A stretch of 64,000 bases of DNA, taken from Escherichia coli (lineage in GTDB: Bacteria; Pseudomonadota; Gammaproteobacteria; Enterobacterales; Enterobacteriaceae). The DNA is taken from NCBI RefSeq assembly GCF_022846255.1, contig NZ_AP025682.1. One strand, written 5' to 3'. Position numbers and translations under genes: made by a program. The notes beneath the pieces were generated by a model. That model was given only the letters and a program-made list of their open reading frames with translations, did no database searches and was not told the origin of the DNA. This document shows positions 7,025-62,448 of this stretch, piece after piece (within the stretch, counting starts at the first letter, position 1; every line of letters starts with the position of its first letter).

Positions 7025-8095
7025 ATGCAGAAAGACGCGCTGAATAACGTACATATTACCGCCGAACAGGTTTTAATGACTCCGGAACAACTGAAGGCCG
7101 CTTTTCCATTAAGCCTGCAACAAGAAGCCCAGATTGCTGACTCGCGTAAAACCATTTCAGATATTATCGCCGGGCGCGATCCTCGTCTGCTGGTAGTATG
7201 TGGTCCTTGTTCCATTCATGATCCGGAAACTGCTCTGGAATATGCTCGTCGATTTAAAGCCCTTGCCGCAGAGGTCAGCGATAGCCTCTATCTGGTAATG
7301 CGCGTCTATTTTGAAAAACCCCGTACCACTGTCGGCTGGAAAGGGTTAATTAACGATCCCCATATGGATGGCTCTTTTGATGTAGAAGCCGGGCTGCAGA
7401 TCGCGCGTAAATTGCTGCTTGAGCTGGTGAATATGGGACTGCCACTGGCGACGGAAGCGTTAGATCCGAATAGCCCGCAATACCTGGGCGATCTGTTTAG
7501 CTGGTCAGCAATTGGTGCTCGTACAACGGAATCGCAAACTCACCGTGAAATGGCCTCCGGGCTTTCCATGCCGGTTGGTTTTAAAAACGGCACCGACGGC
7601 AGTCTGGCAACGGCAATTAACGCTATGCGTGCCGCCGCCCAGCCGCACCGTTTTGTTGGCATTAACCAGGCAGGGCAGGTTGCGTTGCTACAAACTCAGG
7701 GGAATCCGGACGGGCATGTGATCCTGCGCGGTGGTAAAGCGCCAAACTATAGCCCTGCGGATGTTGCGCAATGTGAAAAAGAGATGGAACAGGCGGGACT
7801 GCGCCCGTCTCTGATGGTAGATTGCAGCCACGGTAATTCCAATAAAGATTATCGCCGTCAGCCTGCGGTGGCAGAATCCGTGGTTGCTCAAATCAAAGAT
7901 GGCAATCGCTCAATTATTGGTCTGATGATCGAAAGTAATATCCACGAGGGCAATCAGTCTTCCGAGCAACCGCGCAGTGAAATGAAATACGGTGTATCCG
8001 TAACCGATGCCTGCATTAGCTGGGAAATGACCGATGCCTTGCTGCGTGAAATTCATCAGGATCTGAACGGGCAGCTGACGGCTCGCGTGGCTTAA
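7025..8095 (+). CDS. aroF: Tyr-sensitive DAHP synthase AroF (356 aa)
   Basis: [30 protein letters not shown]...; start at ATG 7025 inside the longer track ORF. Confidence 0.95.
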
Positions 8096-8105
8096 GAGGT
8101 TTATT

Positions 8106-9227: not shown

Positions 9228-9233
9228 TAATCC

Positions 9234-9263
9234 AGTGCCGGATGATTCACATCATCCGGCACT
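9234..9263. terminator. Terminator hairpin between convergent tyrA and pheA
   Basis: Perfect 13-bp inverted repeat agtgccggatgat / atcatccggcact with loop tcac, followed by TTTTT on the plus strand. Confidence 0.65.
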
Positions 9264-9269
9264 TTTTCA

Positions 9270-10430
9270 TCAGGTTGGATCAACAGGCACTACGTTCTCA
9301 CTTGGGTAACAGCCCAATACCTTCATCGAACGGGTGATTTCCCCTAACTCTTTCAATGCTTTTTGCATTTCCGCTGATTCAAGATTGGCCTGAATATCCA
9401 GATAAAACATCTCTTCCCACGGATTACCGTGAATCGGACGTGATTCCAGACGGGTCATAATCAGACTGTGATTGCGCAGTACCAGCAACGCTTCAACCAG
9501 TGCACCAGCTTGTTGTCCGGTCGCCATTAACAACGTCGTTTTCGCCGGAACCTGGTCAGAAACGTTAATGGCTTTACGTGCCAACACCACAAATCGGGTG
9601 AAGTTTTGTCGCTGATTCGCTTCAATACGCTCCAGTACCTGCAAACCGTACAAAGTGCCGCCAGCTTCGCTTCCCAACGCAGCAACATGCGGTGATTTTG
9701 CCTGTGCAACCTTTTCCATTGCCGCAGACGTACTTTCGGTATATTCAATCTTCCAGTGCGGATAACGATTAAGGAATTTGCTGCATTGCTGGAATGGCTG
9801 CGGATGGCTGTAGACCGTATTGATGGCGGATAAATCAGTAGTGCCGGAGACCAACAAACAATGATCGATAGTTAACGTCATCTCGCCAACAATCGACAAA
9901 CTGGTATGTTGCAGCAGATCGTAAACGTCGTTTATGGCACCGGAGCTGGTATTTTCAATCGGTACGACGGCATAGTCGGCCTGGCCGGTTTCCACCTGAT
10001 TAAAAATATCGGCAAATTTGGCGCAGCCACTTTCAATGAATTGCTCAAAGTGACGAGCAGCATACTGGCGCGCCGCAAGATGGGAATAAGAACCTTTGGG
10101 GCCGAGAAAAGCGATGCGTGCTGAGTGCGGATTAATTTTATTGAGATGTTGTTGGAGCAAAGCCTGCTGAGTTAATACGGAATCTTCAATGATGAGCTGG
10201 AACAGGCGAGTAATGTAATGGGCGTCCAGATGGTGCGCTTTACCGAGCGTAATTAATCTTTCCAGCAAATCGCGTTCACGATCAATATCACGTACCGGGC
10301 GATGCGAGAGCAGTTTGGCTTTTCCCACCTCGACGGCCAGTTCGCGTCGCTCTGCCAGTAATGCTAATAATTTTTCATCCAGCGCGCTGATTTTCTCTCG
10401 CAGCGCCAGTAACGGGTTTTCCGATGTCAT
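9270..10430 (-). CDS. pheA: Chorismate mutase / prephenate dehydratase PheA (386 aa)
   Basis: [40 protein letters not shown]...; ACT domain at the C-terminus. Confidence 0.96.
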
Positions 10431-10439
10431 AGTGTTGCC

Positions 10440-10528
10440 TTTTTGTTATCAATAAAAAAGGCCCCCCGATTTGGGAGGCCTTATTGTTCGTCTTCGCATT
10501 CTGTTTCACACGACGAAACGCCTCCCAT
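10440..10528 (-). promoter_or_regulatory. pheA transcription attenuator (terminator/antiterminator region)
   Basis: On the minus strand ggcctcccaaatcggggggcc hairpin followed by a U-run, lying between pheL and pheA. Confidence 0.7.
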
Positions 10529-10576
10529 TCAGGGGAAGGTAAAAAAGAATGCGAAGAAAAACGGTGTGTGTTTCAT
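10529..10576 (-). CDS. pheL: pheA leader peptide PheL (15 aa, [15 protein letters not shown])
   Basis: Minus-strand reading atgaaacacataccgtttttcttcgcattcttttttaccttcccctga; seven Phe codons; too short for the ORF track. Confidence 0.9.
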   Translation of the reverse strand: [15 protein letters not shown]

Positions 10577-10679
10577 GTTTGTTTCCTTAAGTGACTTTAG
10601 TACAGTACCCGTACTGTTTTCACGCTGTCAACAAAAAACGCGCCCGAAGGCGCGTTGGCGATACACTCAATATAAAGGA

Positions 10680-11075
<396 letters not shown>

Positions 11076-51549: not shown

Positions 51550-52940
51550 GCTATACCTCTCTTTTTCATGGCATCGAGCAGGATGTCCTGCACTGTTCGT
51601 TTTGAGTTGCGCCGCTCCATCACCATTTCATCCATAGTGTCGGCAGCAATAATGTGGTGAATAAATACCGGACGATTGTGTCCGGCCTGTATCTGCCTGG
51701 TGGGGCCGATACGTTCAATAATTTGCTGATATTGCTCCAGGTCCCACCAGTGTGAGAAAAATACCAGTATATTTCCGCCGTCCTGCATGTTCAGGCCGTG
51801 GCCCGCGCTGGCTGGGTGTGCAAAGAGAACAGGAATCTTTCCGGAATTCCAGTCGCGCAGTGTCTGTGGATCCTGGTCGAGGTGACGACCGCGAGGGAAT
51901 GCTTTAAGCAAGCGTTCAAGATCGTGTTTCCAGTGATAAGCAACCAGCACAGGTGCGCCAGCTGCTTCGGTCAGTATGCTGTCCAGCGCCTGTAGTTTGG
52001 TGTCATGCAGTTCTGACCAACTTCCGGTGTCATCTGTGTATACTGCGCCGCTGGCGATTTGCAGACACTTCAGTGTCTTTGCCGCGGCGTTCGGTGCTTC
52101 GATGCCTTCGCCATTCAGCTCGAGGAACATTTCCTTTTCCATTTCACGATACTGCTGACGGGCCTTCGGTGGCATATCCACGCGGATTACGTTATGGATG
52201 GGGTCTTTGATATCGAACCAGTCGGCCGCATCCAGCGAGAGGGTTACATCGGCTAACGCTCGCTGTATTTCACCCTGTGAGTGAGCAAAAGGCTCCAGTT
52301 TGGTCCAGCTCTGCCCCGGAAACTGTATCGAGTTGAACCAGCGTGAGGTAAACGCGCCGTAAGTGCGCCCGAGACGTTGCCCCTGGTCCACAAACCACGA
52401 TTGTCCCCACAAATCTACCAGGCCGTTCGGTGCTGGCGTACCGGTGAGATTTATCCAGCGCCGGACATACTTATGCGCCACTTTGCCCAGCGCCGCCGCG
52501 CGCTTACCACCACCGCGCAGCCGGAAGGATTTTAGCCGGGTGCTTTCATCTGGAATGACAGTACCGAACGGCCATCGTTCTCCCAATTCTTCAATCAGCC
52601 AGACAAGGTTATCGTAGTTGATGGTGAACACGCTTGCGTTGCTGTTCGTCAGCGCCATAGAGCGCGCTTTGGCATTACCAATAATTGGCTGCACCTCGAT
52701 ATTGCGCAAATGTCCCCACTTCAGTGCTTCATCCGGCCATGTGCTGGCAGCCACGCGCAGCGGCGCGAGGACCAGTGCGGGGCATGTTTCTGCCCCTGCC
52801 ATAAAGAGATCTTCCAGCGCAGTGAGCGTTGCCACGGTTTTACCCATTCCCATCCCCGCCCAGATGTTGCCGCGCAGGGTTTCGGTTTCGTGGTTGATAA
52901 TGAGATCTTGGTAGGGGCGAGGTATATATTTTGGGGGCAT
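51546..52940 (-). CDS. SNF2/DEAD-like superfamily-2 helicase (464 aa)
   Basis: Walker A GMGMGKT, DExx-like VIPDESTRL, helicase C-terminal domain; AGGAG RBS 9 nt upstream of the ATG at 52940. Confidence 0.8.
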   Translation of the reverse strand: MPPKYIPRPYQDLIINHETETLRGNIWAGMGMGKTVATLTALEDLFMAGAETCPALVLAPLRVAASTWPDEALKWGHLRNIEVQPIIGNAKARSMALTNSNASVFTINYDNLVWLIEELGERWPFGTVIPDESTRLKSFRLRGGGKRAAALGKVAHKYVRRWINLTGTPAPNGLVDLWGQSWFVDQGQRLGRTYGAFTSRWFNSIQFPGQSWTKLEPFAHSQGEIQRALADVTLSLDAADWFDIKDPIHNVIRVDMPPKARQQYREMEKEMFLELNGEGIEAPNAAAKTLKCLQIASGAVYTDDTGSWSELHDTKLQALDSILTEAAGAPVLVAYHWKHDLERLLKAFPRGRHLDQDPQTLRDWNSGKIPVLFAHPASAGHGLNMQDGGNILVFFSHWWDLEQYQQIIERIGPTRQIQAGHNRPVFIHHIIAADTMDEMVMERRNSKRTVQDILLDAMKKRGIA

Positions 52941-52961
52941 ATAATATGGCTCCTAAACAAC

Positions 52962-52983
52962 AAAAGGCCAATTTAGGCCTTTT
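52962..52983. terminator. Terminator hairpin after the cargo gene at 53003..53920
   Basis: aaaaggcc aattta ggcctttt, 8-bp stem flanked by A/T runs (reads as a terminator on both strands). Confidence 0.6.
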
Positions 52984-53002
52984 GTTGTTTTAAAAATGTT
53001 AT

Positions 53003-53920
53003 TTATAATAGTGCTGTTACTATTGCATCTTTAAAAATATTTTCTTCTTCATTTATTAAAGGTGATGACAGATGAATAATTACTTCTTTTCCTGTCAATA
53101 CTATTTGCTCGACTTGAAATCCTGCGTTGTGTAGTCTTTGGCGTAACTTTTCTAGTGCTGATTTTGATATACTAAATCCTTCACTCCTTATAGTATAACT
53201 GGCAACTCCATTTTTAATAATATCTACAGAGTTGTCAATTTCCTGCTGCGAGTAATTTTTCGGTGAGTCGAAAAATCTGGATTTTGTCGTTGCTGTTGCC
53301 CTAAGAGATATCAATAATGATTTGATATCTTTAATCTCAGATGCCAGATACTCAGTTTCTGATACTTCTTTCTGGTCTAGTTGTGCAACTTTGAAAGTGC
53401 CAAAATGTTTGAGGAATGTTGTGTATTCAGGATCAGTTACTGACTTTAAATATGTTTCTTTTATCTTGCTCGCAAGTCTTTCTTTGAATAAATTGATTGA
53501 TTGGTATCTTAAATCCGAAGGGTACTCTAAATGTTCAATTGATGAAATGTCAAAGCTATAAGGAGTGCGCTCGTCCTTAATAATTACGGTCGGTTTGTCA
53601 AATGCGAGACGCATTCCTAATTCAAACATTACATTAGCGTTTCGAGCACTTATATCGCAAACAACTATGGGGTTTTCATAAAGATTTTGAACAATTCGTT
53701 TTTGTATTACTGCAACATCATCATCTGAACTTACCAAATTTGCCTTGAATCCGGCATCATTTGATGCTTCACAAATAATGTCATGAACATTTCTCCAATG
53801 TCCAGTGGGATAACCTTCTATGTCCGCAATTGGCATAATAATGCCGCATATATGAGGTGGCATATTTTTGTTGTCTTTTACATCATCTTGGTTTATTTCT
53901 TTCGTTTGTTGCTTAGCCAT
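53003..53920 (-). CDS. Hypothetical cargo protein (305 aa) with a Rossmann-like N-terminal domain of NDT/TIR-fold appearance and an unknown C-terminal domain
   Basis: N-terminal pattern ICGIIMPIAD ... IVVCDISARNANVMFELGMRLAFDKPTVII (beta-strand, then conserved Glu in an FELG context, as in nucleoside 2-deoxyribosyltransferase/TIR-like folds); gene is conspicuously AT-rich; own terminator. Confidence 0.5.
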   Translation of the reverse strand: MAKQQTKEINQDDVKDNKNMPPHICGIIMPIADIEGYPTGHWRNVHDIICEASNDAGFKANLVSSDDDVAVIQKRIVQNLYENPIVVCDISARNANVMFELGMRLAFDKPTVIIKDERTPYSFDISSIEHLEYPSDLRYQSINLFKERLASKIKETYLKSVTDPEYTTFLKHFGTFKVAQLDQKEVSETEYLASEIKDIKSLLISLRATATTKSRFFDSPKNYSQQEIDNSVDIIKNGVASYTIRSEGFSISKSALEKLRQRLHNAGFQVEQIVLTGKEVIIHLSSPLINEEENIFKDAIVTALL

Positions 53921-53935
53921 AGCTTACACAGACTC

Positions 53936-54220
53936 CTATTGTAATTTTTTGCCTAATATACATGAAAGCTCCTTACTATCCAGTACTACCACGGTAAAGC
54001 CCAGTTTTCGCAGACGTTCATGCTCGCGCAACTGATCAGGTCGTGGTGGTTTGCCTGGTGCTTTGCATTCGACAAAGACGATGCGACCGCCGGGTAGCAG
54101 AACAATGCGATCTGGTACCGAGCGGAGACCGGGAGATACGAACTTAAAGGCAACCCCGCCAGCCTTTTTTACTTCAGCGACGAGGTGCTTTTCGATTAGG
54201 TTTTCACGTTCATAGGCCAT
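53936..54220 (-). CDS. VRR-NUC domain nuclease (94 aa)
   Basis: PD-(D/E)xK-type motif ...PDRIVLLPGGRIVFVECKAPG...; typical partner of phage SNF2 helicases. Confidence 0.75.
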   Translation of the reverse strand: MAYERENLIEKHLVAEVKKAGGVAFKFVSPGLRSVPDRIVLLPGGRIVFVECKAPGKPPRPDQLREHERLRKLGFTVVVLDSKELSCILGKKLQ

Positions 54221-54414
54221 TAGCTTTCGCCTTCCTGCTTTTTGCGTTTCTTCATGCAGATAGCGCAGTTCTCAGGATGGTCATGCCATTCGTCAATCCT
54301 GATACCTGTGAACATCCATTTTCCGCATAGTGATATGGCTTCCCCCGAATTAAAGAAATGTGCTTTTTTCGACAGGGCGGGGAACCCCCAACCTTTATTA
54401 TCGATATTAGACAT
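54220..54414 (-). CDS. Small Cys/His-containing phage protein (64 aa), possible zinc ribbon
   Basis: ...SLCGKW...HDHPENCAICMKKRKKQ; stop overlaps the VRR-NUC start. Confidence 0.45.
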   Translation of the reverse strand: MSNIDNKGWGFPALSKKAHFFNSGEAISLCGKWMFTGIRIDEWHDHPENCAICMKKRKKQEGES

Positions 54415-54602
54415 CGTCCACCTCCTTACGCTTTTCGCGCATGTTCTGCATCAGACAAAAATCAAACCGACGTTCGCTTTGGCCCAGACCTGCATCGCCC
54501 GGTCGTACCCGCTGGACTGTTCAAGGCGCAAAGCCTCCCGCGCAGTCCGGTAATAAAGCGGACTGTCCCGGTATTTAAATGACATAGGGTTTTTATTCCC
54601 AA

Positions 54603-54625
54603 ATAAAAAACCCCGCAATGCAGGG
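54603..54625 (-). terminator. Rho-independent terminator after the TIR-like gene
   Basis: Minus-strand RNA cccugc auu gcgggg (one G-U pair) followed by UUUUUU. Confidence 0.6.
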
Positions 54626-54649
54626 TTGTAATCAACAATAAGGGGGTAA

Positions 54650-55411
54650 TTACGAGGAAGCGTTAGCTATTTGAGCTTGTGTAAATTCGAAACCAGAATT
54701 TTGTAACCGTTGCACTAGACGAGGAACTGTTTCACGTACATGGTCGTTGAAATTCAGATACAAAATCCCGTTAGCATCAGAAGGCTGTTCTAGGTGCTGT
54801 TTCTGAAGGATTGCTACATTGCTGCGCCCTAAGGACGAAAGAAGCATACCCATCTCGAGTACAACGTTCTGTCTTGCGCGGGGTTGGATTTCTGCTTCAC
54901 CGGCGCGCTTTGAGTATCCCATATCATCAGGTGTCAAAAGAACAATCCCGAAACGGGTAGCAGTTTGTCCTTGCCCAATTTCACGTTCAAGCTCTTCAAT
55001 AATGGTGAGTCCAGTCCCTCCCGTATTCTGCAAAATGAAATGGTCTGGTAATCCAAGTTTATGAAGGATTAGCTCAAGTTGTTCCTTTGCAGTATGGTCA
55101 TGGCCGTGAACAATGAATATCTTTTTGGGAAGCTCAGATGGCTGTTCTACGGCTAGTGGTGTTGCCGTGGGGGGCGTTCCTAAATGGGACATTATTGCAG
55201 TTTCAACATTGGGACGTTCTTGAGGGTTACCTTGAAACTGAATGGTCCGGGTGGTGTAAAGGTTAACAATTACGCCATTCGTTAAACGATAGCAGTCATA
55301 AGTCTCACGCTGTTCGTGGGAAAAATTGGTGAACCCACACTCCCTCAAAAAGTCAGGAAAAGATTCTCTCGGGTATGGATAGGTGATCGGCATTTCAGTT
55401 AGTTCCTGCAT
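54650..55411 (-). CDS. TIR-like nucleotide-binding domain protein (253 aa), Cap12-like TIR-like family with an unknown about 80-aa N-terminal domain
   Basis: KIFIVHGHDHTAKEQLELILHKLGL ... FGIVLLTPDDMGY ... RARQNVVLEMGMLLSSLGRSNVAIL, matching my recollection of the 'predicted nucleotide-binding protein containing TIR-like domain' family (PF10137); AAGGA RBS; own terminator. Confidence 0.65.
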   Translation of the reverse strand: MQELTEMPITYPYPRESFPDFLRECGFTNFSHEQRETYDCYRLTNGVIVNLYTTRTIQFQGNPQERPNVETAIMSHLGTPPTATPLAVEQPSELPKKIFIVHGHDHTAKEQLELILHKLGLPDHFILQNTGGTGLTIIEELEREIGQGQTATRFGIVLLTPDDMGYSKRAGEAEIQPRARQNVVLEMGMLLSSLGRSNVAILQKQHLEQPSDANGILYLNFNDHVRETVPRLVQRLQNSGFEFTQAQIANASS

Positions 55412-55475
55412 AAGTATTGTTCCTTTAATTTACTCGAATTCAGCATGTCGCCATAGCTCGATAAGGTGAGTTATA

Positions 55476-57551
55476 TCAATCTTTTTTGTAGTGGTACGCC
55501 TCAAAGCCGCCAGCGTTCAGCGGAATATCGGGTGCCCATTCGGGGTTAGTGGAGAGAAGCGCGGAAAGCGCTTTATCGTTGAAATCTTCTGTGTCTGGTG
55601 CTTCGGTGATCACCTCGTCGTGTACCGTTAGCACAATGCTGTAACCGGCACCCTCGATCAGCGGCATGTTTCTGGCCAGAACGTCGCGGGCGGCCGCCTG
55701 GGTGACGTTCTCCACCAGCTTTCCGCCGTAGGTTTTGAGTCGTTGCCATTTACGCGAATAAGAGTTAACACCCATGTAGGTGATATTCCCTTGTTCGATA
55801 ACCGGAGACGGGTAGCATACAGCGCGTCCGGATGGTAGCTGTATGCGCAGCCACGCGCCATCACGTCGGATTTTAAGATAGCCGCAATACAATGTTTTTT
55901 GCGGTGTGGCGATTGCTGTGCGGACAGTGCGCTCCAGCTCGTACCAGAAATCGCAGGTCGCCGGGTGCGCCCTGCGCCACAGGCGCTTGAGCGAGTCACA
56001 TGCGATGAATACACGCTCGGACAGGCCAAAGGTCGACTTACGCTTAACCGATTCGTCGTACCAGCTTTTTGCCTCGCGGATAACATCGCGGGGAATGTTT
56101 GGCAGTGCGGCGTTCGCCAGCTCGTCGAGATCGAGACCGTAAACCAGAGCAAAAGTGATGAAAGCCGATACACCACCTCCATAACCCAGACCGAGTTCCA
56201 TGACTTTACCGATCTGACGCATGTGTTTATCAACATCATCTGGTGCAATATCGAAAGCTTTTGCATACGCCAGTTTATATAAGTCCGGACCCGTTCCAGC
56301 GTCATACTCTCTGAATGCATTCAGTTTCCATTCTTCTCCCGCCAGCCATGCCAGCATACGGCCTTCAATGTTTGACAAGTCACTTACCACTAGTTTTTTG
56401 CCTGTTGGCGCGATAATGCAGCCACGTAACGCTGAACTGGTTAGTTCCATGATATTGTCAAACAGCAGGTCTGCACATCCGGCTTTCAGTGCTTCGATGC
56501 CTTCGTCTATTTGTTCCTGTTTTAGTGAAGGGCGGGGAAGGTTCTGGGGCTGGAATAGCCGTCCGGCCCAACGACCGGTACGTGACGCCCCGCAGAACTG
56601 TAGCGTACCGCGTAAGCGCCCGTCGTGGCTTACGCCTTTCATCAGTGCCTTGTATTTACTGGTGCTGGTAGTACTGGCTTGCAGGCGGATAGCCAGCAGT
56701 TCTTTCACGGCAGATGATAAATCGGGGTCGGCCATACGACGTTCCAGGGTACTGCGTTGCATGTCTGGTAGCTCCACACCGTAGGATTCAACGATGTGCT
56801 TAATCAACGCGTCCCGTTGTGTGGCTGCCTGCACTTCGCCATCAGTCATTTCCTGTGTACGCTTTGCTAGGCGCTTTTGCTCCTGGTCTACCGCTTCGAT
56901 CGCAGCGCGCGCGAGTTGCATGTCCATGCAGACGCCCCGGTCGTTGATCTGCTGATCACGATGCCAGAGCGCCAGCTCTGTCCCCTGATAATTCCACTTC
57001 GGCAGACGTTTATAGACTTCGCGCATTGCCTCGATATCCAGTCCGGCGTAAGCAACAAAGCGCCGCCATTCTTCCGGGTGGGTTTTGCTGGTGGCACGGC
57101 GCAGTTTGCTGTTTTTCGGGCGGGGCTTACAGAACAGCTGGATCAGCGCTTTACCTTCTTTGTCCTTCGCTTTGTCTTGCGGGACGCCGAGTATTTCGCA
57201 GAGTTCCCCCAGAGACCCCGGGAGACCGTGCGCCAGCGCCTGCACCATTGTGTCTCGCCAGCGTTTGGCGCTACCTGCAACAACGCATTGGGGAGTGTGC
57301 AGCAATGCATGGCGCAACATGGTGCGATCGAAATGGCTGTTGTGTGCATATATTAGTACGCTCTCATCGCTGAGAGCTGTCAGTAGTCGTGTCGGCAAGT
57401 TATAGTCTGTGGTTAAATCGTGTACGCTGACGGGGTCTTCGTCGATTGCCCATGCGAATAACATGATTTCGACTCCTTCTGCATAGACATGGGTGCCGTT
57501 TTTTATTGGGATTTCGCTGAAAGTTTCGAGGTCTAACCAAAGTTTTTGCAT
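55476..57551 (-). CDS. Phage family-A DNA polymerase with N-terminal 3-5 exonuclease (start at ATG 57551; track ORF extends to a TTG at 57593)
   Basis: Exo I motif LDLETFSE near the N-terminus, Exo-like [12 protein letters not shown], polymerase motif [14 protein letters not shown]-type motif YGGK. Confidence 0.85.
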
Positions 57552-57580
57552 CAAGTAAGGACCCGTTGGATTTAATAAAT

Positions 57581-57607
57581 AAAAAGCCGCCAAAATGGCG
57601 GCTTTTT
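57581..57607 (-). terminator. Rho-independent terminator after the SIR2-like gene
   Basis: Minus-strand aaaagccgcc atttt ggcggctttt followed by a U-rich tract. Confidence 0.65.
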
Positions 57608-57627
57608 ATAACCGAAGTTAAGAATGC

Positions 57628-59130
57628 TTAATATGATAAATAATCATACAAGCATAAAAGTCGCCTGTATTGGGTATCAATTTTATGCCCTGGTTTTGTT
57701 AAATAATCTCGTAGTTGTTTCAATGAAATAGTATCGTTTAGTACGCAATACATAATCGTGTTAGCAACTTTATACTCTTTCGTTTCTTTTAGTATTTCAT
57801 CAATAGACACAGCCTCACTCTTACATGTTTTAATTCGAGAAAGGTTACCAATGATTTTATCTAGCTGCCGTTTTCTGTATGTCTCGGTATTTTCTAGTTC
57901 AGGGCAGATAGAACTAAAAGCGTATATTGGAAAGTGTTCGCTATTAGCTATGGTTTGCTTATTCAGTAATGCGATAAGCTGAGAGTTTGCTTCGTCAACT
58001 ATTTTAAAATAGTTCTGTATCATTTCAGATTTTGTTTGATAAACATATTGTACGGTTCTTTCTGAACCAACAGCAATGACCATTTCATCATTGCGAAGTT
58101 CATCTAAATTTTCTGTAATTTTAACCTTTATCTCACCACCACTTTTGATGGTACTCCAAACTTTTTGAACCTTTCTTATGTCCATTGCGGATACTGGCAA
58201 AACTAGTCCCGAGATGGCATCATATACAGCTTTGTAATTGTTTGTTTTTATTTTGTTTATTCTTATGATAGACATGCCTTCTATATCTATGTCATGCTCC
58301 GTAATTTCAGTTGACATGCTGTCTTTTTCGTATTCAACCAAAAGAAAATTATCTTTTATCCTTTTTGCAAGTTCGGTATTTAAGTCAACGTATGAGAATA
58401 TGGTTTTTAATAAGTACTTAATGTTTTTATCGCTAATACTATACCCTATAAATATGATAGGGTTGTGTATGAATATTGAGAGTAATTGAGCGCGAATTAA
58501 CTCATATTTATTGTCGAAGTTTGCGTAGTCTTCACCTGTGATAATTATGTTGTTAGGATCACTAACACAGCCATGTATTTTGTAAACTGAACCGTATGGG
58601 TTACTTAAAAGAATGTTATTACCAATCAGTGGGTTAAATTCGAAGATGTTCTCTACGAGTTGGTCGTAGTTTGTTGTAATGATGGAGCCTATGTTTTTTC
58701 TTGTTTTTATTAAGCTGTTTATTTCCTCCATCATTGACTCTTTTATCTTTAGGTCTTTAAGTATTGAAGTTAAATAAATTTTGAATCGACTTAGTTTTTT
58801 TCCTTTTTTCATGTGCTCATAGAAAACATCATTGATGTCTTTGAACTTACCGTTACGATCTTCTGCCAGCTTTTTATTAAAAATATCTTCAAGTTTTGTA
58901 GCTAAGATATCATATCGATAGTCGTCACCTTCTAGGCTTTCAGCTTTCAAATCGTAGTAAAACTCAGCATTACCGGTTAGTTCCATTGCGACACTCAAAA
59001 GAAGACCATCCCAGCTAAATGAGTTTTCTAGATACCGTAGGCTAAATCCTGTTCCAATGAATAGAACAGGGTGGTTTTTATAGTGACTTACAAACTCTTG
59101 GATTTCCATACCGATTCTCAAAGTTGACAC
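57628..59130 (-). CDS. SIR2-like (sirtuin-fold, SIR2_2-type) protein, 500 aa, with an about 250-aa C-terminal domain of unknown type
   Basis: Motifs PVLFIGTGFS, SIITTNYD, YKIHGC and IIFIGYSISD, in the order seen in defence-associated SIR2 domains; GTG start at 59130 with AGAGG RBS (first ATG at 59109); roughly 30% GC by hand count versus about 50% in flanking polymerase; own terminator. Confidence 0.75.
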   Translation of the reverse strand: MSTLRIGMEIQEFVSHYKNHPVLFIGTGFSLRYLENSFSWDGLLLSVAMELTGNAEFYYDLKAESLEGDDYRYDILATKLEDIFNKKLAEDRNGKFKDINDVFYEHMKKGKKLSRFKIYLTSILKDLKIKESMMEEINSLIKTRKNIGSIITTNYDQLVENIFEFNPLIGNNILLSNPYGSVYKIHGCVSDPNNIIITGEDYANFDNKYELIRAQLLSIFIHNPIIFIGYSISDKNIKYLLKTIFSYVDLNTELAKRIKDNFLLVEYEKDSMSTEITEHDIDIEGMSIIRINKIKTNNYKAVYDAISGLVLPVSAMDIRKVQKVWSTIKSGGEIKVKITENLDELRNDEMVIAVGSERTVQYVYQTKSEMIQNYFKIVDEANSQLIALLNKQTIANSEHFPIYAFSSICPELENTETYRKRQLDKIIGNLSRIKTCKSEAVSIDEILKETKEYKVANTIMYCVLNDTISLKQLRDYLTKPGHKIDTQYRRLLCLYDYLSY

Positions 59131-59220
59131 GTAATACCTCTATAAAAACAAATAGCCGTAAAAATTCCAATAGCTTTTTGGATCTCGCCCGGTGTGTAAC
59201 CGGGCGTCTATGAAGAAGGG

Positions 59221-59769
59221 TTAAATCAGTGCTTCAGCATCAGCACCTTCGCTGATATCGTCGAAATCGTCAGCGCTTGCCACTCCGCCGCCAGCGAATG
59301 CATCGCCGTCTCGCAGGAACTGGACTCCGCCGAGTGAGGCATTAATGCGTTTACCGAAATTATTGTCCTGTGCCCAGATATCGATAACGGCGTTTACATA
59401 GCACCCTGCATAGGGACGTCCATCAGCCTGAATTAGTGGCGAACGATCGCGATCAAGAACAGCTGGGCGCGCTTTGTTAGCAGCGTTCAGGAAGAAATTG
59501 CCGGGAAAACCTTCATACTCTGCTTTTTCATCACCATCATGCAGGCACAGATTGAGTTTTTTCTCCAGCTGGTTATAAATGGACTCCCACTTCTCCCCCC
59601 ATTTTTCCTTCGCTACCTGCTTCATAGCTTTACGGATTTCTTCCAGTTGTGGGTGTTTGGGAGACATTAAAAATACTGCGGAGAAACGCGGATCGCCTTC
59701 GCCGTTTACAGTTTTAGCTTCAAACAGAGACGGGAAGGCCAGACGAACATTGTTCAACTTCAGTTTCAT
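59221..59769 (-). CDS. Phage ssDNA-binding protein (DUF2815-like, 182 aa)
   Basis: MKLKLNNVRLAFPSLFEAK N-terminus and acidic C-terminal tail (DDFDDISEGADAEALI), typical of phage SSBs. Confidence 0.7.
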   Translation of the reverse strand: MKLKLNNVRLAFPSLFEAKTVNGEGDPRFSAVFLMSPKHPQLEEIRKAMKQVAKEKWGEKWESIYNQLEKKLNLCLHDGDEKAEYEGFPGNFFLNAANKARPAVLDRDRSPLIQADGRPYAGCYVNAVIDIWAQDNNFGKRINASLGGVQFLRDGDAFAGGGVASADDFDDISEGADAEALI

Positions 59770-59784
59770 GGGTATTTCCTTAAA

Positions 59785-61086
59785 TCAGATGAGGTCTGCG
59801 GTTAGCGTATCGTCGGATACGTCGTCGAAATCATTTACAGGGTTGATATTGAGTGCGGGGCGTGGGTCTGACTCGGGAACGACGGTGGGTTTACCATCAG
59901 CTCGTGTTATCAGTGCCTCGACTTTTGACCAACGGCGCGGACTGGCCTTTTTGATAAGTTTTTCGGCTTTTGTGGGACTAATAAGTTTAAAGTCGAATAC
60001 TTCTTCAGTTTTGTACCTGAACTGGTCCTTCAGAAGTGCGCGAGCTGCCTCTTCATCACTCCAGGCCCGGTTACCTTGTTTTCCTGTTACCAGTTTAAAC
60101 CCCGGTACCGAATGTCCGGCATTGAGTTCATTGTGAACCCGGTCCCGTACTTCCTTTAGCCAGGATTCAATAAAGTCGGCCTGGCTATAGATCTCCGCAA
60201 GCTGCTCAATGGTTAACAGAGGTACACGTGCGCTGGCATTGGTGATTATTTCGCTGACAGGCTTTGTCAGATCTTCAAAGTCGCTGGCCGCTGTTTGTAA
60301 ATGCTGCATTTTCTGGGCAGTGCAAATAGCTTTTGCTTTACAGAAGCGGCACTGTTTTTCTCCAGGTATGAATTTTTCCAGCGGTAGTGTCTCAATGCCT
60401 TCGCATTCAGCAATATTGAGAACAAGCATCGCACTGGTTGCGGCCTCCTGTGCCCGTTCACCGAAAGACTGAAGTTCCTGCACGGTTAACGACCATTCTG
60501 AAACGTGGTTGAGCCTTGGCTGGTGAATAAATAATCTTACAGTCTCAAAGTCATACAGCATGCTGAATTGTTCGAGCGCACCCAGAGCATACAGTTGTAG
60601 TTGCTCATTTTGTTCTGCATCAATGCGGACGCCTTTGCCATATTTCAGGTCGTGGATTTGTAATTCGTTACCAGCGATGATTATGCCGTCGGCAGTTCCG
60701 AAAGATTCTTCCACACCCGTTATATGTGAGAAATCAACACGTTGTTCAACCAATAGTTCATTATTCTTTGCAAGAGTCCAGACCGTATCAACATACCGGC
60801 CGACGGCTTCGACCATTTCATCATCCACCTGTGGGCCAGATGTATCATCAGGATTTTCGCGAAGGGGGTATGAGCCGAGAAACATAGAAACATTGCATCC
60901 GGCGTAGTGTTCCGGGTGGCTTTGCCTGTTTCGTAGAACTTTTTCAGCAAGCGCGTGCGCTGCAGTGCCCTCGATTGCAAAAGTTGTTTCTTTATCCGGT
61001 TGTGTGGCCTCCAGCGCCAGACTTCCTGGGCAGCGCATCCATCGATGCGCTGATGATGGAGAAAGTTGTGCATGAACGTCTGGCAT
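59785..61086 (-). CDS. Phage PD-(D/E)xK nuclease (DUF2800-like, 433 aa)
   Basis: N-terminal [15 protein letters not shown] motif and C-terminal Cys cluster ([10 protein letters not shown]); acidic tail. Confidence 0.7.
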
Positions 61087-61088
61087 GA

Positions 61089-61991
61089 TTAACCCTCCAG
61101 TGCTTTTTCAGCCAGGGTGATTACTTCAGCGAGATTTTCATCCGTTACTTCACCAAGTTTCCTGGCTCCCTGTTTTTCCAGAATTGCAATAGCTTCTGCC
61201 CGGTAACCCCCTTTTGCTAACTGGAGGATCAACCCTTCAGCTTGTTTGCGTAGTGCCGCGAAATCAATTGTATGGTCATCTTTGGCGTCATTATTCTGGC
61301 TGGAATTTGCTGCGTCTCTGCGTGCAAATTCTTCCTGCAGCTGAAGGTACTCAACACGGTTGATCTCGATATGGCCTTTTTTCAGCATCTCGTTCAACTT
61401 GCGTAAGGTGTGGAGTTCACTGGCTGCTGTGCCGGATACATTTTTGACGTAAAACGGCCCCGTGCGTTCTCCATCTTTGTTACTGGCCTTTTTCGGCTTA
61501 ACTTCATCACGCCCATCCGCAGGTGCATCAAGTAGCTGCTCGGCAAAAGCACGTCGCTCGCCGATGGTTGGCAGGTCGTCCCAGAACTTAAGGATGTTAC
61601 GGGACAGGTCCAGGAGAGCAGGTTTAAGCAGCGCCCTGGCTCGTTTGACGCCCTGCAATGCGCTGTCGAGAGCATCAATCTGAACTACTCGTTTATCGCC
61701 TTCAGCATCACGGTAGGCAACAGCACGTTGCAGCATGTCTTCTGTGATAGGGGTGGCTACCGGGTAGAAACCCGCCAGTGCGATAACGTCGCTGAACTCC
61801 AGATCATCCAGTGTCATTGCCGCTGACATATTTTCAGTTTCAGTTGCTGTATCCCGACATTCCTGCACTCGTGAAATCGTGTCAGGATGCATAACAATGC
61901 CTGATGCCATTGTGCGGATAAGACGTTCAAGCAGCGCATTATGTTGTGCCAGAAGTTGATTATTAAGTTCTAGACTGGTTTCTAAACTCAT
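61089..61991 (-). CDS. Hypothetical phage protein (300 aa)
   Basis: ORF in operon upstream of the DUF2800 gene; no motif recognised. Confidence 0.5.
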
Positions 61992-62170
61992 ACTGTGGTC
62001 CTCGCTACAAGGAGAATGAAAGTGATGATCAGACCGAGCGCAGTGGCAACGGCCAGACCGGTCATCAAATCGAAGTTTTTACGGCGATAACGGAGAACAT
62101 CGCGCCCCGTCAGTCGATGGATGTGTTCAGGTTTCATCGGTTGTATTCCTTTTTTCATATCGGGGAGCAC
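61988..62170 (-). CDS. Small hypothetical membrane protein (60 aa)
   Basis: One predicted TM helix (LAVATALGLIITFILLV); stop overlaps the next gene. Confidence 0.4.
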   Translation of the reverse strand: MLPDMKKGIQPMKPEHIHRLTGRDVLRYRRKNFDLMTGLAVATALGLIITFILLVARTTV

Positions 62171-62253
62171 GCTGTTGCGAGTGCGCTTTCAGACATAAAA
62201 AAGCCCGTCACTTGAGGCGGGCAAAGACTACACACAGCAATTACATGGATGAT

Positions 62254-62448
62254 TCAGTTGGTATTGTGCGTACGTGGTACCACAAGGTTGAAGCGGACAC
62301 GCCAGTGCGTTGCAATGGTATGCAGGAAAGCACCACATCCAGGGCAGTGCTCATAACATTCGTTGATTTGGTATCGTTTTGGCTTTGGTGTCAGAAGCTG
62401 TGTTTGGCAAGCAGGGCATTCACCTTTGAGCGGTTTATACGTTTTCAC
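62254..62448 (-). CDS. Small Cys-rich phage protein (64 aa), possible zinc finger
   Basis: CPACQ ... CYEHCPGCG; first gene of the leftward operon. Confidence 0.45.
   Translation of the reverse strand: MKTYKPLKGECPACQTQLLTPKPKRYQINECYEHCPGCGAFLHTIATHWRVRFNLVVPRTHNTN

What the first reader, a model, noticed from the sequence alone, without database searches (positions are those of the whole stretch)
57628..59130. AT-rich SIR2-like gene inserted between the phage SSB and DNA polymerase genes
The 500-aa product carries the ordered motifs VLFIGTGFS, IITTNYD, IHGC and IIFIGYS, which I recognise as the SIR2_2-type sirtuin fold used by defence NADases (ThsA, DSR, SIR2-HerA). Hand counts of sample lines give roughly 20-38% GC against about 48% in the polymerase gene. 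It has a plausible GTG start with AGAGG RBS and a strong terminator immediately downstream, so it looks like an autonomous unit. The C-terminal half matches nothing I can name by eye (not obviously SLOG or Macro), so it may be a new sensor or regulatory domain.
Basis: partly seen in the sequence, partly recalled or inferred. Interest (0 to 1): 0.85.

Follow-up and report, generated by a model that had tools for sequence, protein, structure and literature searches.

The report
Stand-alone SIR2 defence gene in prophage
An intact, horizontally acquired gene for a sirtuin-like (NAD-cleaving) enzyme with its own private C-terminal module sits as swappable cargo between the SSB and DNA polymerase genes of an E. 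coli prophage. It is very probably an anti-phage immunity gene, from a family already catalogued as an untested candidate (PADLOC PDC-S25).

Summary
A 1,503-nt ORF (57628-59130, minus strand) has 33% GC against 50% for the window. It lies between a Gp2.5/Enc34-type SSB gene and a PolA gene of an E. coli prophage, and a strong terminator follows it.

Residues 8-305 are a SIR2_2 domain closest to the ThsA NADase. The ThsA catalytic Asn and His equivalents (N154, H186) are invariant in 30 homologues.

Residues about 306-500 match no Pfam, PDB or AlphaFold-DB family outside this protein's own relatives. They are not SLOG or Macro.

The gene with its conserved promoter-like element and terminator is a 1.65-kb cassette in a replaceable slot. 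About 158 related E. coli prophages carry at least six other cargoes there; only 4 carry this gene. Relatives sit in the P2 defence hotspot, in a restriction-enzyme island, on plasmids, and alone between housekeeping genes.

The whole protein matches PADLOC candidate PDC-S25 (E 4e-158), which has been predicted but never tested.

Best reading: a single-gene, trigger-activated NAD+-depleting abortive-infection system. Enzymatic activity, the trigger and expression in the lysogen are all inferred.

The real start is probably ATG 59109 (493 aa), not the GTG. This is a new variant of a known kind, of moderate interest.

The parts
57534..59186 (.). Replaceable cargo cassette (1,653 bp). It is non-homologous to the 715 bp that occupy the same slot in the E. 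coli IAI1 prophage.
   Evidence: blastn of the window against L002: homology runs 53973-57533 and 59187-62259, with a gap between them. Alignments of both junctions. GC 0.333.
57628..59130 (-).
   Evidence: RefSeq annotates the same 1,503 nt in strain ECONIH2 as 'SIR2 family protein'.
57628..59109 (-). Most likely true coding sequence: ATG at 59109 (M8), 493 aa.
   Evidence: M8 is invariant and is the first residue in most homologues. The 22 diverse full-length relatives with a SIR2 domain all align from about residues 7-8 of the query, apart from two N-terminally shortened ones. In the P2-hotspot and yecA-island copies the seven upstream codons contain stop codons, but a GAGAA Shine-Dalgarno-like motif before the ATG is conserved. 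A 493-aa form is on record with 100% identity (P0001).
58216..59109 (-). SIR2 (sirtuin-like) domain, residues 8-305.
   Evidence: Pfam SIR2_2 for residues 149-246, E 1.2e-20. PADLOC ThsA SIR2 models, E 3.6e-18. phmmer against PDB: SeThsA 3.8e-9 and BcThsA 3.7e-8, with alignment running to residue 306. Foldseek top hits are all defence SIR2 proteins.
59041..59055 (-). G26-T-G28-F-S30, the Rossmann GxGxS NAD-binding motif.
   Evidence: G26, G28 and S30 are invariant in 30 homologues. They align to the GAGLS motif of a ThsA chain. Codons checked.
58669..58671 (-). Codon of N154 (TTNYD), the equivalent of ThsA catalytic Asn112.
   Evidence: Residue-by-residue alignment to 6lhx_A. Invariant. N112A abolishes ThsA NADase activity and Thoeris defence (PMC7272460).
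58573..58575 (-). Codon of H186 (KIHGC), the equivalent of ThsA His152.
57931..58215 (-). Conserved middle segment, residues 306-400 (LPVSAMDxRKVQ, GGxIxV, xVGS). No known family; poorly modelled between residues 306 and 365.
   Evidence: Mean pairwise identity 0.64, similar to the SIR2 core. Invariant residues listed. pLDDT below 60.
57631..57930 (-). Fast-evolving alpha-helical C-terminal module, residues 401-500 (the helical bundle starts at about residue 366). Proposed sensor or specificity module.
   Evidence: Mean pairwise identity 0.34-0.39 against 0.64-0.77 elsewhere in the protein. AF2 pLDDT 80-95, all helical. No relatives outside the family. The same module occurs once fused to a Schlafen/AlbA_2 domain.
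57574..57607 (-). Rho-independent terminator of the cassette, 21 nt downstream of the stop codon and 23 nt upstream of the PolA ATG.
   Evidence: Equivalent hairpins follow the Klebsiella, P2-hotspot and yecA-island copies.
59142..59170 (-). Promoter-like element: -35 TTGGAA, 17-nt spacer ending in TGn, -10 TTTTAT (extended -10 type).
   Evidence: Conserved in register in four genomic contexts. It does not pass the strict sigma-70 scan because it lacks A at -10 position 2. Function is inferred.
59186..59206 (-). Conserved backbone hairpin (CGCCCGG-TTACACA-CCGGGCG) just after the SSB stop codon. It marks the right-hand boundary of the slot.
   Evidence: Homology to IAI1 resumes at 59187.
59221..59769 (-). 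Flanking backbone gene: Gp2.5-like / DUF2815 (Enc34-type) ssDNA-binding protein.
   Evidence: phrog_112, E 2.4e-56. RefSeq annotation DUF2815. Pfam Enc34_ssDNA-bd in the Klebsiella locus.
55476..57551 (-). Flanking backbone gene: family-A DNA polymerase. The real ATG is at 57551; the TTG at 57593 listed by the ORF finder runs through the terminator.

Best explanation
The gene encodes a stand-alone, single-protein anti-phage immune effector of the SIR2 (sirtuin-like) NAD+ glycohydrolase class. It is carried as a self-contained moron (promoter-like element, ORF, terminator) in a replaceable cargo slot of a temperate E. coli phage integrated next to yfhL. Proposed mechanism: the protein is made in the lysogen and kept inactive. 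When another phage infects, a trigger engages the family-specific C-terminal region, whose last ~100 residues evolve fast. That relieves autoinhibition of the N-terminal SIR2 domain, most likely through a change in oligomeric state as in ThsA, DSR2, SIR2-HerA, SPARSA, Avs5 and KomBC. N154 and H186 then hydrolyse NAD+ to ADP-ribose and nicotinamide, cellular NAD+ collapses, and the infection aborts. Shown here: domain identity, conservation of the catalytic residues, cassette structure, slot variability, mobility and genomic company. Inferred: NADase activity, the defence phenotype, expression in the lysogen, the nature of the trigger, and oligomerisation.
For: SIR2 assignment: Pfam SIR2_2, E 1.2e-20. 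The ThsA SIR2 models are the best named PADLOC hit, E 3.6e-18. PDB sequence hits are ThsA (3.8e-9) and KomC. All Foldseek top hits are defence SIR2 NADases.

Active site: N154 and H186 align to ThsA N112 and H152, whose mutation abolishes NADase activity. Both are invariant across 30 homologues, as is the GxGxS motif. There is no CxxC zinc module, so this is not a canonical deacylase architecture.

Candidate-family match: full-length match to PADLOC PDC-S25, E 4e-158. That family was nominated because members are embedded in BREX, DISARM or type I RM loci.

Cassette and slot: GC 0.33 against 0.50, with precise non-homology boundaries. About 158 related E. coli prophages hold at least six other cargoes in the slot, and only 4 hold this gene.

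Own expression signals: the promoter-like element and terminator are conserved in four different contexts.

Genomic company of family members: the validated P2 gpA-gpQ defence hotspot; an island with a restriction endonuclease, GmrSD and a PD-(D/E)XK nuclease; an integrative element carrying an ABC-3C system; a position next to a reverse transcriptase in Firmicutes; 130 plasmids, including a 5.6-kb plasmid on which the only features annotated under the match are the SIR2 gene and a replication initiation protein; and solo insertions between housekeeping genes.

Benefit to the host rather than the phage: the Klebsiella orthologue stays intact (501 aa, one identical sequence indexed in 668 blocks of the assembly collection) in a decayed prophage remnant whose DUF2800, VapE and SSB genes are truncated.

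Modular effector/sensor logic: the C-terminal tail is the fastest-evolving part. The same helical module occurs fused to a Schlafen/AlbA_2 domain. The same SIR2 clade occurs with a different C-terminus (pFR88).

Precedent: a different stand-alone ~440-aa Sir2 protein ('sole-Sir2') converts NAD+ to ADPR, and a homologue of it protects against T2 and T4.
Against: No member of this family has a reported phenotype; PDC-S25 is one of 145 explicitly untested candidates. The closest tested relative I found is the solo SIR2 of a P4 hotspot (pFR88). Its SIR2 domain is 33% identical and its C-terminus is different. It is listed among 'additional tested systems' and is not among the seven systems that protected against eight coliphages. 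The strict sigma-70 scan finds no promoter upstream, and the gene lies on the same strand inside the early replication operon, so expression in the lysogen is unproven. The AF2 models are only moderate (pLDDT 75 and 74), and the stretch around the catalytic His is poorly modelled. One of the four E. coli carriers has an IS1 inside the gene. The slot also holds non-defence-like cargo such as Nmad5 nucleotide-modification genes, BRO-N and HNH, so slot membership alone does not imply defence.
Confidence: 0.6

Rival explanations
1. The gene serves the phage's own lytic cycle. It would be an early-expressed enzyme, co-transcribed with SSB and polymerase, that remodels host NAD metabolism or ADP-ribosylates or deacylates host or phage proteins. 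That would make it a host-takeover or counter-defence function rather than immunity.
For: It lies on the same strand inside the early replication operon, between SSB and PolA. A 71%-identical orthologue sits in the same slot of a related Klebsiella prophage. Distant homologues occur in temperate phages of Gram-positive bacteria, such as BK5-T, phBC6A51 and Javan227. No canonical promoter is found by the strict scan. The slot also carries Nmad5 nucleotide-modification genes, which are plausible counter-defence cargo.
Against: Only 4 of about 158 related E. coli prophages carry it, so it is dispensable for this phage type. Relatives occur without any phage genes: between housekeeping genes, on small plasmids and in restriction-enzyme islands. 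The gene stays intact in a decayed Klebsiella prophage remnant. Its own promoter-like element and a strong terminator insulate it from the operon. An active NADase would starve the phage's own replication.
Confidence: 0.12
2. The SIR2 domain is catalytically active but is not a bulk NADase. It would act as an NAD+-dependent ADP-ribosyltransferase or deacylase on a specific protein or nucleic-acid target. That role could be defensive or regulatory.
For: SIR2-fold enzymes include ADP-ribosyltransferases and deacylases; this rests on general knowledge and the review text seen. Conservation of N154 and H186 is compatible with any NAD+-consuming chemistry. The conserved 306-400 segment could be a substrate-binding element.
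Against: All the nearest relatives by sequence and fold are NAD+ glycohydrolases of defence systems. The protein lacks the zinc-binding CxxC...CxxC module of canonical sirtuin deacylases. The stand-alone sole-Sir2 precedent makes ADPR from NAD+.
Confidence: 0.12
3. The gene is the effector half of a split Thoeris-like pair. The CAP12/Pycsar-type TIR gene on the other side of PolA (54650-55411), or the possible TIR-like gene at 53003-53920, would make a nucleotide signal that the novel C-terminal domain of the SIR2 protein binds.
For: A TIR-domain gene (PF10137, E 4.5e-31; PADLOC PDC-S35, E 1e-108) lies 2.2 kb away on the same strand in the same operon. A second AT-rich cassette encodes a protein with a weak TIR-effector hit, E 1e-6. 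The SIR2 domain is ThsA-like.
Against: The TIR gene is present in sister prophages that lack SIR2, such as IAI1; it is found in 36 genomes against 4 for this SIR2 allele. The Klebsiella prophage has SIR2 but no TIR gene. Family members function-neutrally alone in P2 hotspots, on plasmids and between housekeeping genes, with no TIR gene nearby. The C-terminus is not SLOG or Macro. This TIR type is an effector in CBASS and Pycsar, not a known signal generator.
Confidence: 0.05
4. The gene is a passenger with no current function in this strain: a recently acquired or decaying selfish gene.
For: It is rare in E. coli (this allele in 4 of 5,426 genomes; the family in 73 of 5,426). One carrier has an IS1 insertion in the gene. 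A related solo SIR2 gave no phenotype in one screen.
Against: The 500-codon ORF is intact in 33%-GC DNA. Cross-phylum conservation is very strong (55-57% identity to Firmicutes and Bacillaceae copies), with invariant catalytic residues. The regulatory signals are conserved. The gene is retained in a degraded Klebsiella prophage.
Confidence: 0.05

Closest known systems
PADLOC phage-defence candidate PDC-S25 (Payne et al., bioRxiv 10.1101/2024.01.29.577857); also phrog_2695
   Same: The HMM match covers the full length (residues 4-500 to profile positions 4-514 of 517, E 4e-158; phrog_2695 E 1e-154). Both are single-gene systems. This protein is a member of that family.
   Different: Nothing differs in sequence terms. 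However, the family is a computational candidate ('guilt by embedding' in BREX, DISARM or type I RM loci) with no tested phenotype, no biochemistry and no description of its C-terminal module.
ThsA, the SIR2-SLOG effector of type I Thoeris (PDB 6lhx, 7uxt, 8bto)
   Same: It is the closest characterised SIR2 domain (PADLOC E 3.6e-18; PDB E 4e-9). The catalytic Asn and His and the GxGxS motif align. Overall size (~480-500 aa) and the N-terminal position of the SIR2 domain are similar.
   Different: There is no SLOG (or Macro) signal-binding domain; the C-terminal half is an unrelated, family-specific region. No conserved partner thsB/TIR gene accompanies the family.
DSR2 / DSR1 (defence-associated sirtuins)
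   Same: They are single-protein systems with an N-terminal SIR2 NADase and a C-terminal helical, non-enzymatic region that senses infection (in DSR2, the phage tail tube). DSR2 chains are among the top fold matches.
   Different: DSR proteins are ~1,000-1,250 aa with long helical-repeat sensors, whereas this protein is 493-500 aa. Only the SIR2 region matches (PADLOC Dsr1 E 3.7e-5, residues 149-278). The trigger here is unknown.
'sole-Sir2' of CRISPR-supervised immune systems (bioRxiv 10.1101/2024.12.27.630466)
   Same: It is a small stand-alone Sir2 protein (~440 aa) with an uncharacterised second region proposed as the sensor. NAD+ conversion to ADPR was shown in vitro, and a homologue protects E. 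coli against T2 and T4. It is the best functional precedent for how the protein here probably works.
   Different: As described, the domain order is reversed (Sir2 at the C-terminus) and the protein is smaller. The Neisseria member of the present family sits inside a split hrpA gene, not in a cas operon.
Solo SIR2_2 genes of the P2 and P4 hotspots (Rousset et al. 2022, PMC9122126)
   Same: WP_021514374, listed there as a solo 'SIR2_2' system of the P2 gpA-gpQ hotspot, is a true family member (PDC-S25 E 6e-157; 73% nucleotide identity). Both are prophage hotspot cargo.
   Different: The copy they cloned (pFR88, from a P4 hotspot) shares only the SIR2 domain (33% identity; PDC-S25 profile positions 10-342) and has another C-terminus. 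It appears under 'additional tested systems' and not among the seven validated ones. The slot described here (SSB-PolA of a different prophage type) is not one of their hotspots.
SIR2-HerA (Nezha), SPARSA, Avs5, KomBC, Lamassu-SIR2
   Same: All use a SIR2 NADase effector that is activated by assembly into higher-order oligomers. They are fold neighbours of this protein.
   Different: All need partner proteins or extra domains (HerA, pAgo/APAZ, a STAND ATPase, KomB, LmuB/C). None of these is encoded next to this gene in any context examined.
AbiH (lactococcal single-gene abortive infection protein)
   Same: It is a single-gene Abi system whose predicted fold resembles sirtuins.
   Different: Neither the Pfam scan nor the PADLOC scan returned an AbiH family. 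The relationship goes no further than the shared fold.

Membership tests
SIR2_2 / defence-type sirtuin-fold NADases | Significant match to the SIR2_2 profile and a SIR2 fold | tested here: met
   PF13289, E 1.2e-20. Foldseek top 50 hits are all defence SIR2 proteins, prob ~1.0, although TM scores are low because the central region is poorly modelled.
SIR2_2 / defence-type sirtuin-fold NADases | Catalytic Asn and His and the Rossmann GxGxS NAD-binding motif | tested here: met
   N154 and H186 align to ThsA N112 and H152. G26, G28 and S30 are present. All are invariant in 30 homologues.
SIR2_2 / defence-type sirtuin-fold NADases | NAD+ glycohydrolase activity | not testable with these tools
   Needs purified protein or in-vivo NAD+ measurements.
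PADLOC PDC-S25 (candidate single-gene system) | Full-length match to the family HMM | tested here: met
   PDLC04968, E 4.1e-158, residues 4-500 to profile 4-514 of 517.
PADLOC PDC-S25 (candidate single-gene system) | Acts alone, with no conserved neighbouring gene | tested here: met
   The neighbours differ completely across 10 contexts. On a 5.6-kb plasmid the only features annotated under the match are the SIR2 gene and a replication initiation protein.
PADLOC PDC-S25 (candidate single-gene system) | Demonstrated anti-phage activity | not testable with these tools
   The family is listed as untested, and only two papers mention it by name.
Thoeris ThsA | C-terminal SLOG (type I) or Macro signal-binding domain | tested here: not met
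Thoeris ThsA | Adjacent thsB (TIR) gene that co-occurs with it | tested here: not met
   A TIR gene lies 2.2 kb away beyond PolA, but it occurs without SIR2 in sister prophages, and SIR2 occurs without TIR elsewhere.
DSR1 / DSR2 | A protein of ~1,000 aa or more with a long C-terminal helical-repeat sensor homologous to DSR | tested here: not met
   The protein is 493-500 aa. PADLOC Dsr1 matches only the SIR2 core (E 3.7e-5). The C-terminal model has no DSR hit.
SIR2-HerA / SPARSA / Avs5 | Partner HerA ATPase, short pAgo, or a fused STAND NTPase | tested here: not met
   No such gene lies next to it in the window or in related loci. No ATPase domain is present in the protein.
Canonical sirtuin protein deacylases | Zinc-binding module with two CxxC pairs | tested here: not met
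   There are five Cys residues (188, 409, 436, 462, 493) and no CxxC.
Phage moron (autonomous cargo unit in a prophage) | Inserted between two backbone genes, with deviant composition and variable occupancy among relatives | tested here: met
Phage moron (autonomous cargo unit in a prophage) | Own terminator | tested here: met
Phage moron (autonomous cargo unit in a prophage) | Own promoter active in the lysogen | tested here: inconclusive
   A -35/extended -10-like element is conserved in four contexts, but it fails the strict consensus scan. No transcript data are available.

The most novel reading that the evidence does not exclude
The family-specific C-terminal region (a conserved 306-400 segment plus a hypervariable helical bundle at about 366-500) is a new class of portable infection sensor. 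It would directly recognise a phage-encoded protein or replication product and switch on whatever effector it is fused to: SIR2 here, a Schlafen/AlbA_2 domain in one metagenomic relative. Its recurrent placement between SSB and polymerase in E. coli and Klebsiella prophages would then reflect a functional link to phage DNA replication, for example sensing foreign SSB or polymerase while sparing the resident phage's own proteins.
Probability: 0.12. Interest if true: 0.7.

Novelty: new variant of a known kind. Interest (0 to 1): 0.42.

Why it matters
If the cassette protects against phages, it adds a compact (~1.65 kb, one gene) NAD+-depletion system with a sensor module that resembles nothing characterised. 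The family is widespread: Enterobacteria, Vibrio, Aeromonas, Neisseria, Bacillaceae plasmids and gut Firmicutes. It would also convert PADLOC candidate PDC-S25 into a validated system. In addition, it would define a further defence/cargo hotspot, the SSB-PolA slot (with a second slot at 52914-53972) in a common family of E. coli and Klebsiella prophages, analogous to the P2 and P4 hotspots. The hypervariable tail and the two domain-swap relatives give a direct handle for finding the trigger. If the cassette does not protect, the finding is simply a correctly annotated 'SIR2 family protein' moron.

Tried and rejected

2. NCBIfam gave no hit for the protein.

3. A profile search of 1.84 billion representative proteins with the C-terminal profile looked for other architectures. 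It returned 180 hits. Of the 23 that were 430 aa or longer, 22 have the same SIR2 N-terminus, one is an AlbA_2 fusion on a single 1.5-kb metagenome contig, and the rest are fragments.

4. A Thoeris-like pairing with the neighbouring TIR gene was rejected on co-occurrence.

5. Identity with the PD-T4/PD-lambda systems of Vassallo et al. was rejected: none of their PADLOC models hits the protein, and the paper's Sir2-related mention concerns PD-T7-2, which resembles SIR2/HerA.

6. Identity with the experimentally tested pFR88 SIR2 of Rousset et al. was rejected: it shares the SIR2 clade only and has a different C-terminus.

7. Identity with 'sole-Sir2' could not be tested because no sequence is held. 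The described domain order differs, and the Neisseria family member is not in a cas operon.

8. The simple promoter/terminator scan found no promoter upstream and missed the obvious terminator. I used folding and comparative alignment instead.

9. The full-length AF2 model (pLDDT 75.5) models residues 160-200 and 350-375 poorly, so I drew no conclusions about autoinhibitory contacts.

10. Megablast of the locus against the phage collection found only the SSB flank in three induced E. coli phages. No sequenced phage in that collection carries this allele.
Full report
OBSERVATION. The four quoted motifs are present, in order, at residues 22, 150, 185 and 225. The ORF has 33.2% GC (GC3 32%), against 53.8% for the polymerase gene, 49.0% for the SSB gene and 49.9% for the window. 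Only 0.3% of equally long windows are as AT-rich, and those all lie at this locus. AGAGG precedes the GTG by 6 nt. Twenty-one nucleotides after the stop codon lies a textbook intrinsic terminator, AAAAAGCCGCC-AUUUU-GGCGGCUUUUU-AUUUAUU at 57574-57607. It folds at about -20 kcal/mol, and none of 200 shuffles folds as well. The neighbours are a Gp2.5-like/DUF2815 (Enc34-type) ssDNA-binding protein and a family-A DNA polymerase. The window is an E. coli prophage integrated beside yfhL.

THE N-TERMINAL HALF. Residues 8-305 are a SIR2-type domain. Pfam SIR2_2 matches with E 1.2e-20. Among named defence proteins the best PADLOC match is the SIR2 part of ThsA (E 3.6e-18), then Dsr1 and the SIR2 of SIR2-HerA. 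Among solved structures the best sequence matches are ThsA from Streptococcus equi and Bacillus cereus (E 4e-9 and 4e-8), followed by KomC. A Foldseek search with an AlphaFold2 model returns only defence SIR2 proteins at the top: SPARSA, DSR2, ThsA, SIR2-HerA, KomC and Avs5. The TM scores are low because the model is poor around residues 160-200. In the residue-level alignment to B. cereus ThsA, N154 (TTNYD) and H186 (KIHGC) fall on Asn112 and His152. N112A and H152A abolish ThsA NADase activity, and N112A abolishes Thoeris defence (PMC7272460). Both residues, and the GxGxS motif (G26, G28, S30), are invariant in 30 homologues spanning 55-86% identity. The protein has no CxxC pair, so it lacks the zinc module of canonical deacylating sirtuins.

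It has two parts. The 306-400 segment is as conserved as the catalytic core (mean pairwise identity 0.64) but is badly modelled up to about residue 365. The helical bundle is confidently modelled (pLDDT 80-95 from about residue 366), and its last ~100 residues are the fastest-evolving part of the protein (0.34-0.39).

A profile of this region was searched against 1.84 billion representative proteins and found only 180 hits. Of the 23 that are 430 aa or longer, 22 carry the same N-terminal SIR2 domain. One (P0209, on a single 1.5-kb metagenome contig) carries a Schlafen/AlbA_2 domain instead, fused to the homologue of residues 360-500. Conversely, a solo SIR2 from a P4 satellite (pFR88 of Rousset et al.) has the same SIR2 clade (33% identity; PDC-S25 profile positions 10-342) joined to a different C-terminus. 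Both halves therefore behave as exchangeable modules, as effector and sensor parts of immune proteins typically do. The AlbA_2 case rests on one low-coverage contig.

THE CASSETTE AND ITS SLOT. Against the sister prophage of E. coli IAI1, homology is continuous on both sides and breaks exactly at 57534 and 59186. The window has 1,653 bp there and IAI1 has 715 bp, carrying an unrelated gene on the other strand. The right-hand boundary is a conserved hairpin just after the SSB stop codon (59186-59206), and the left-hand boundary is at the polymerase start.

Of about 158 complete E. coli genomes with this prophage backbone, 4 carry the SIR2 gene (99.7% identical; in one of them an IS1 has inserted into it). 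The others carry at least six other arrangements: a phrog_10579 hypothetical gene, Nmad5 nucleotide-modification genes with or without a second gene, BRO-N, HNH, and other hypothetical genes. So this is a cargo slot and not purely a defence slot.

A related, decayed prophage next to sbcB in Klebsiella has a 71%-identical orthologue in the same slot. It is more diverged than the flanking SSB (90%) and polymerase (83%) and equally AT-rich (0.33 against 0.55-0.60).

Four copies in four different settings were compared: this slot, the Klebsiella remnant, a P2 prophage hotspot, and a chromosomal island near yecA. They share an upstream element aligned in register: TTGGAA, 17-18 nt ending in TGn, TTTTAT (an extended -10 type), then about 25 nt containing GAGAA, then ATGGAAATC. 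Each has a strong hairpin terminator downstream. This supports an autonomous transcription unit. It also implies that translation starts at the ATG at 59109 (M8).

That ATG is the start used across the family. In two of the four copies the seven upstream codons are interrupted by stop codons. In the window the GTG and its AGAGG sit on or just after the -10-like hexamer. The GTG remains possible on read-through transcripts, because the Klebsiella copy has an ATG at that codon with a GAGG before it. The strict sigma-70 scan does not call this promoter, so its activity is inferred.

WHERE THE FAMILY LIVES. The whole protein matches PADLOC candidate PDC-S25 (E 4e-158) and phrog_2695, a family of unknown function (E 1e-154). 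Full-length homologues of about 497-501 aa occur in Enterobacteria, Aeromonas, Vibrio, Methylobacter, Neisseria, Bacillaceae and gut Firmicutes, at 52-86% identity. In E. coli, 73 of 5,426 complete genomes hold a member. The contexts examined were:
- the gpA-gpQ hotspot of a P2-like prophage (WP_021514374, recorded as a solo 'SIR2_2' system in Table S5A of Rousset et al.);
- an island with a restriction endonuclease, a PD-(D/E)XK nuclease and GmrSD next to yecA;
- an integrative mobilisable element at ssrA carrying an ABC-3C system;
- an integrase island in Salmonella with Peptidase_M78 and P4 beta-protein genes;
- a Firmicutes element, next to a 993-aa reverse transcriptase;
- solo insertions between housekeeping genes in Aeromonas, Methylobacter and Neisseria;
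- 130 plasmids, including a 5.6-kb Pantoea plasmid on which the only features annotated under the match are the SIR2 gene and a replication initiation protein;
- at 27-31% identity, temperate phages of Gram-positive bacteria.

No neighbouring gene is shared between these contexts, so the gene acts alone. In Klebsiella the gene is intact, with one identical protein sequence indexed in 668 blocks of the assembly collection, while the surrounding prophage genes are truncated. That is the pattern expected of a gene kept for the host's benefit.

LITERATURE STATUS. PDC-S25 is one of 145 'phage defence candidates' nominated because members are embedded in BREX, DISARM or type I RM loci, and the authors state that these are untested. 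Only one other paper names it, in a list of predicted systems. Rousset et al. listed solo SIR2_2 genes in both the P2 and P4 hotspots and cloned one (pFR88). It is tabulated under 'additional tested systems' and is not among the seven P4 systems that protected against eight coliphages. It shares only the SIR2 clade with the present protein. A separate stand-alone Sir2 protein ('sole-Sir2', ~440 aa, Sir2 at the C-terminus) converts NAD+ to ADPR, and a homologue of it protects against T2 and T4. I could not obtain its sequence. AbiH is another single-gene Abi protein with a sirtuin-like predicted fold, and neither the Pfam nor the PADLOC scan returned an AbiH family.

MOST LIKELY MECHANISM. Shown: a catalytically competent-looking, ThsA-like SIR2 domain; a private C-terminal region with a fast-evolving helical end; a mobile, self-contained, single-gene cassette; and systematic association with defence hotspots and mobile elements. 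Inferred: the protein is made in the lysogen and held inactive. A product of an infecting phage is recognised by the C-terminal region. The hypervariable tail favours a protein or other variable ligand over a conserved small-molecule signal. Recognition changes the oligomeric state, as in every characterised defence SIR2. The SIR2 domain then hydrolyses NAD+, and the infection aborts. I put this at 0.6.

RIVALS.
- A role in the phage's own lytic cycle or in counter-defence (0.12). It is favoured by the position inside the early operon and the shared slot in Klebsiella. It is disfavoured by the gene's rarity among sister prophages, its phage-free contexts and its retention in a dead prophage.
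- NAD-dependent chemistry other than bulk hydrolysis (0.12).
- A split Thoeris-like pair with the CAP12-type TIR gene 2.2 kb away (0.05). This is rejected on co-occurrence: the TIR gene occurs without SIR2 in IAI1-type prophages, SIR2 occurs without TIR in Klebsiella and elsewhere, and there is no SLOG or Macro domain.
- A functionless passenger (0.05).

VERDICT. The finding is a member of a catalogued but untested candidate family. In kind it is a new variant of the known SIR2 NAD+-depletion defences, being ThsA-like in its enzyme and unlike anything characterised in its second half. A specialist would not be surprised to find it in a prophage cargo slot. The open and testable questions are the trigger and the nature of the C-terminal module. 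Interest is 0.42.

Noticed in passing
window 54650-55411 (-): A 253-aa protein with a CAP12/Pycsar-effector-type TIR domain (PF10137, E 4.5e-31). It is a full-length match to another untested PADLOC candidate, PDC-S35 (E 1e-108). It lies directly downstream of PolA in the same operon. It is present at 99% identity or more in 36 E. coli genomes and also in IAI1-type prophages that lack the SIR2 gene.
   Followed up: partly
window 52914-53972 (ORF 53003-53920, -): A second AT-rich (36% GC) replaceable cassette lies between the helicase and VRR-NUC genes. Here it holds a 305-aa ORF (phrog_3634) with a weak hit to a PADLOC TIR-effector model (E 1e-6; Pfam only E 0.2). ECONIH2 has DUF6338 plus a small ORF there, and IAI1 has another hypothetical gene. 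This prophage may therefore carry up to three NAD-related immune-type genes in one operon.
   Followed up: partly
E. coli 23CRST009 (NZ_AP045766.1 1200808-1203485), the counterpart of window 57628-59130: In one of the four E. coli genomes with this SIR2 allele, the gene is interrupted by an IS1 element.
   Followed up: no
L003-L006 (Klebsiella, near sbcB): This is a cryptic prophage remnant: DUF2800 is cut to 71-121 aa, VapE to 199 aa, SSB to 84-93 aa in two loci, and PolA is split in one. The 501-aa SIR2 orthologue in the same SSB-PolA slot is intact, with one identical sequence indexed in 668 blocks of the assembly collection.
   Followed up: partly
P0209 / L021 136-1434: A 432-aa metagenomic protein joins a Schlafen/AlbA_2 domain (PF04326, E 1.3e-10) to a homologue of residues 360-500 of the SIR2 protein (BLASTP E 2e-13). 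It is the only non-SIR2 architecture found for this C-terminal module. It comes from a single 1.5-kb contig at low coverage, so a chimeric assembly is not excluded.
   Followed up: partly
L007-L010 (Firmicutes, 6544-10804): The homologue plus a KilA-N gene lie between two fragments of a serine recombinase gene, as if inserted into it. A 993-aa RVT_1 protein and a HATPase_c_4 protein lie next to them (a possible defence-associated reverse transcriptase).
   Followed up: no
L020 6428-14603 (Neisseria gonorrhoeae): The family member plus a phosphoethanolamine-transferase-like gene are inserted inside hrpA. The N-terminal 466 and the C-terminal ~820 residues of HrpA are encoded on either side of the insertion. 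The record is filed as a 2.17-Mb 'plasmid' in PLSDB, which looks like a mislabelled chromosome.
   Followed up: partly
L013 8527-9753 (Salmonella): A 408-aa ORF with no Pfam hit starts 30 nt after the SIR2 stop codon on the same strand. It is disrupted in the sister locus L014. It could be a lineage-specific partner.
   Followed up: no
window 59186-59206 (-): A conserved GC-rich hairpin without a U-tract follows the SSB stop codon. It is identical in position in IAI1 and forms the exact right-hand boundary of the variable slot. It might be a recombination or RNA-processing signal. In Klebsiella the same place has a true terminator.
   Followed up: partly
window 55476-57593 (-): The ORF finder's TTG start for the polymerase (57593) runs through the SIR2 terminator. 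The real start is the ATG at 57551, as annotated in RefSeq. A strong terminator 23 nt upstream of the polymerase start raises the question of how PolA is transcribed in SIR2-carrying prophages (its own promoter or antitermination).
   Followed up: no
slot between DUF2815 and PolA in other E. coli prophages: About a third of the sampled sister prophages carry 'Nmad5 family putative nucleotide modification protein' genes in this slot. Others carry BRO-N or HNH genes. The slot therefore mixes possible counter-defence cargo with defence cargo.
   Followed up: no
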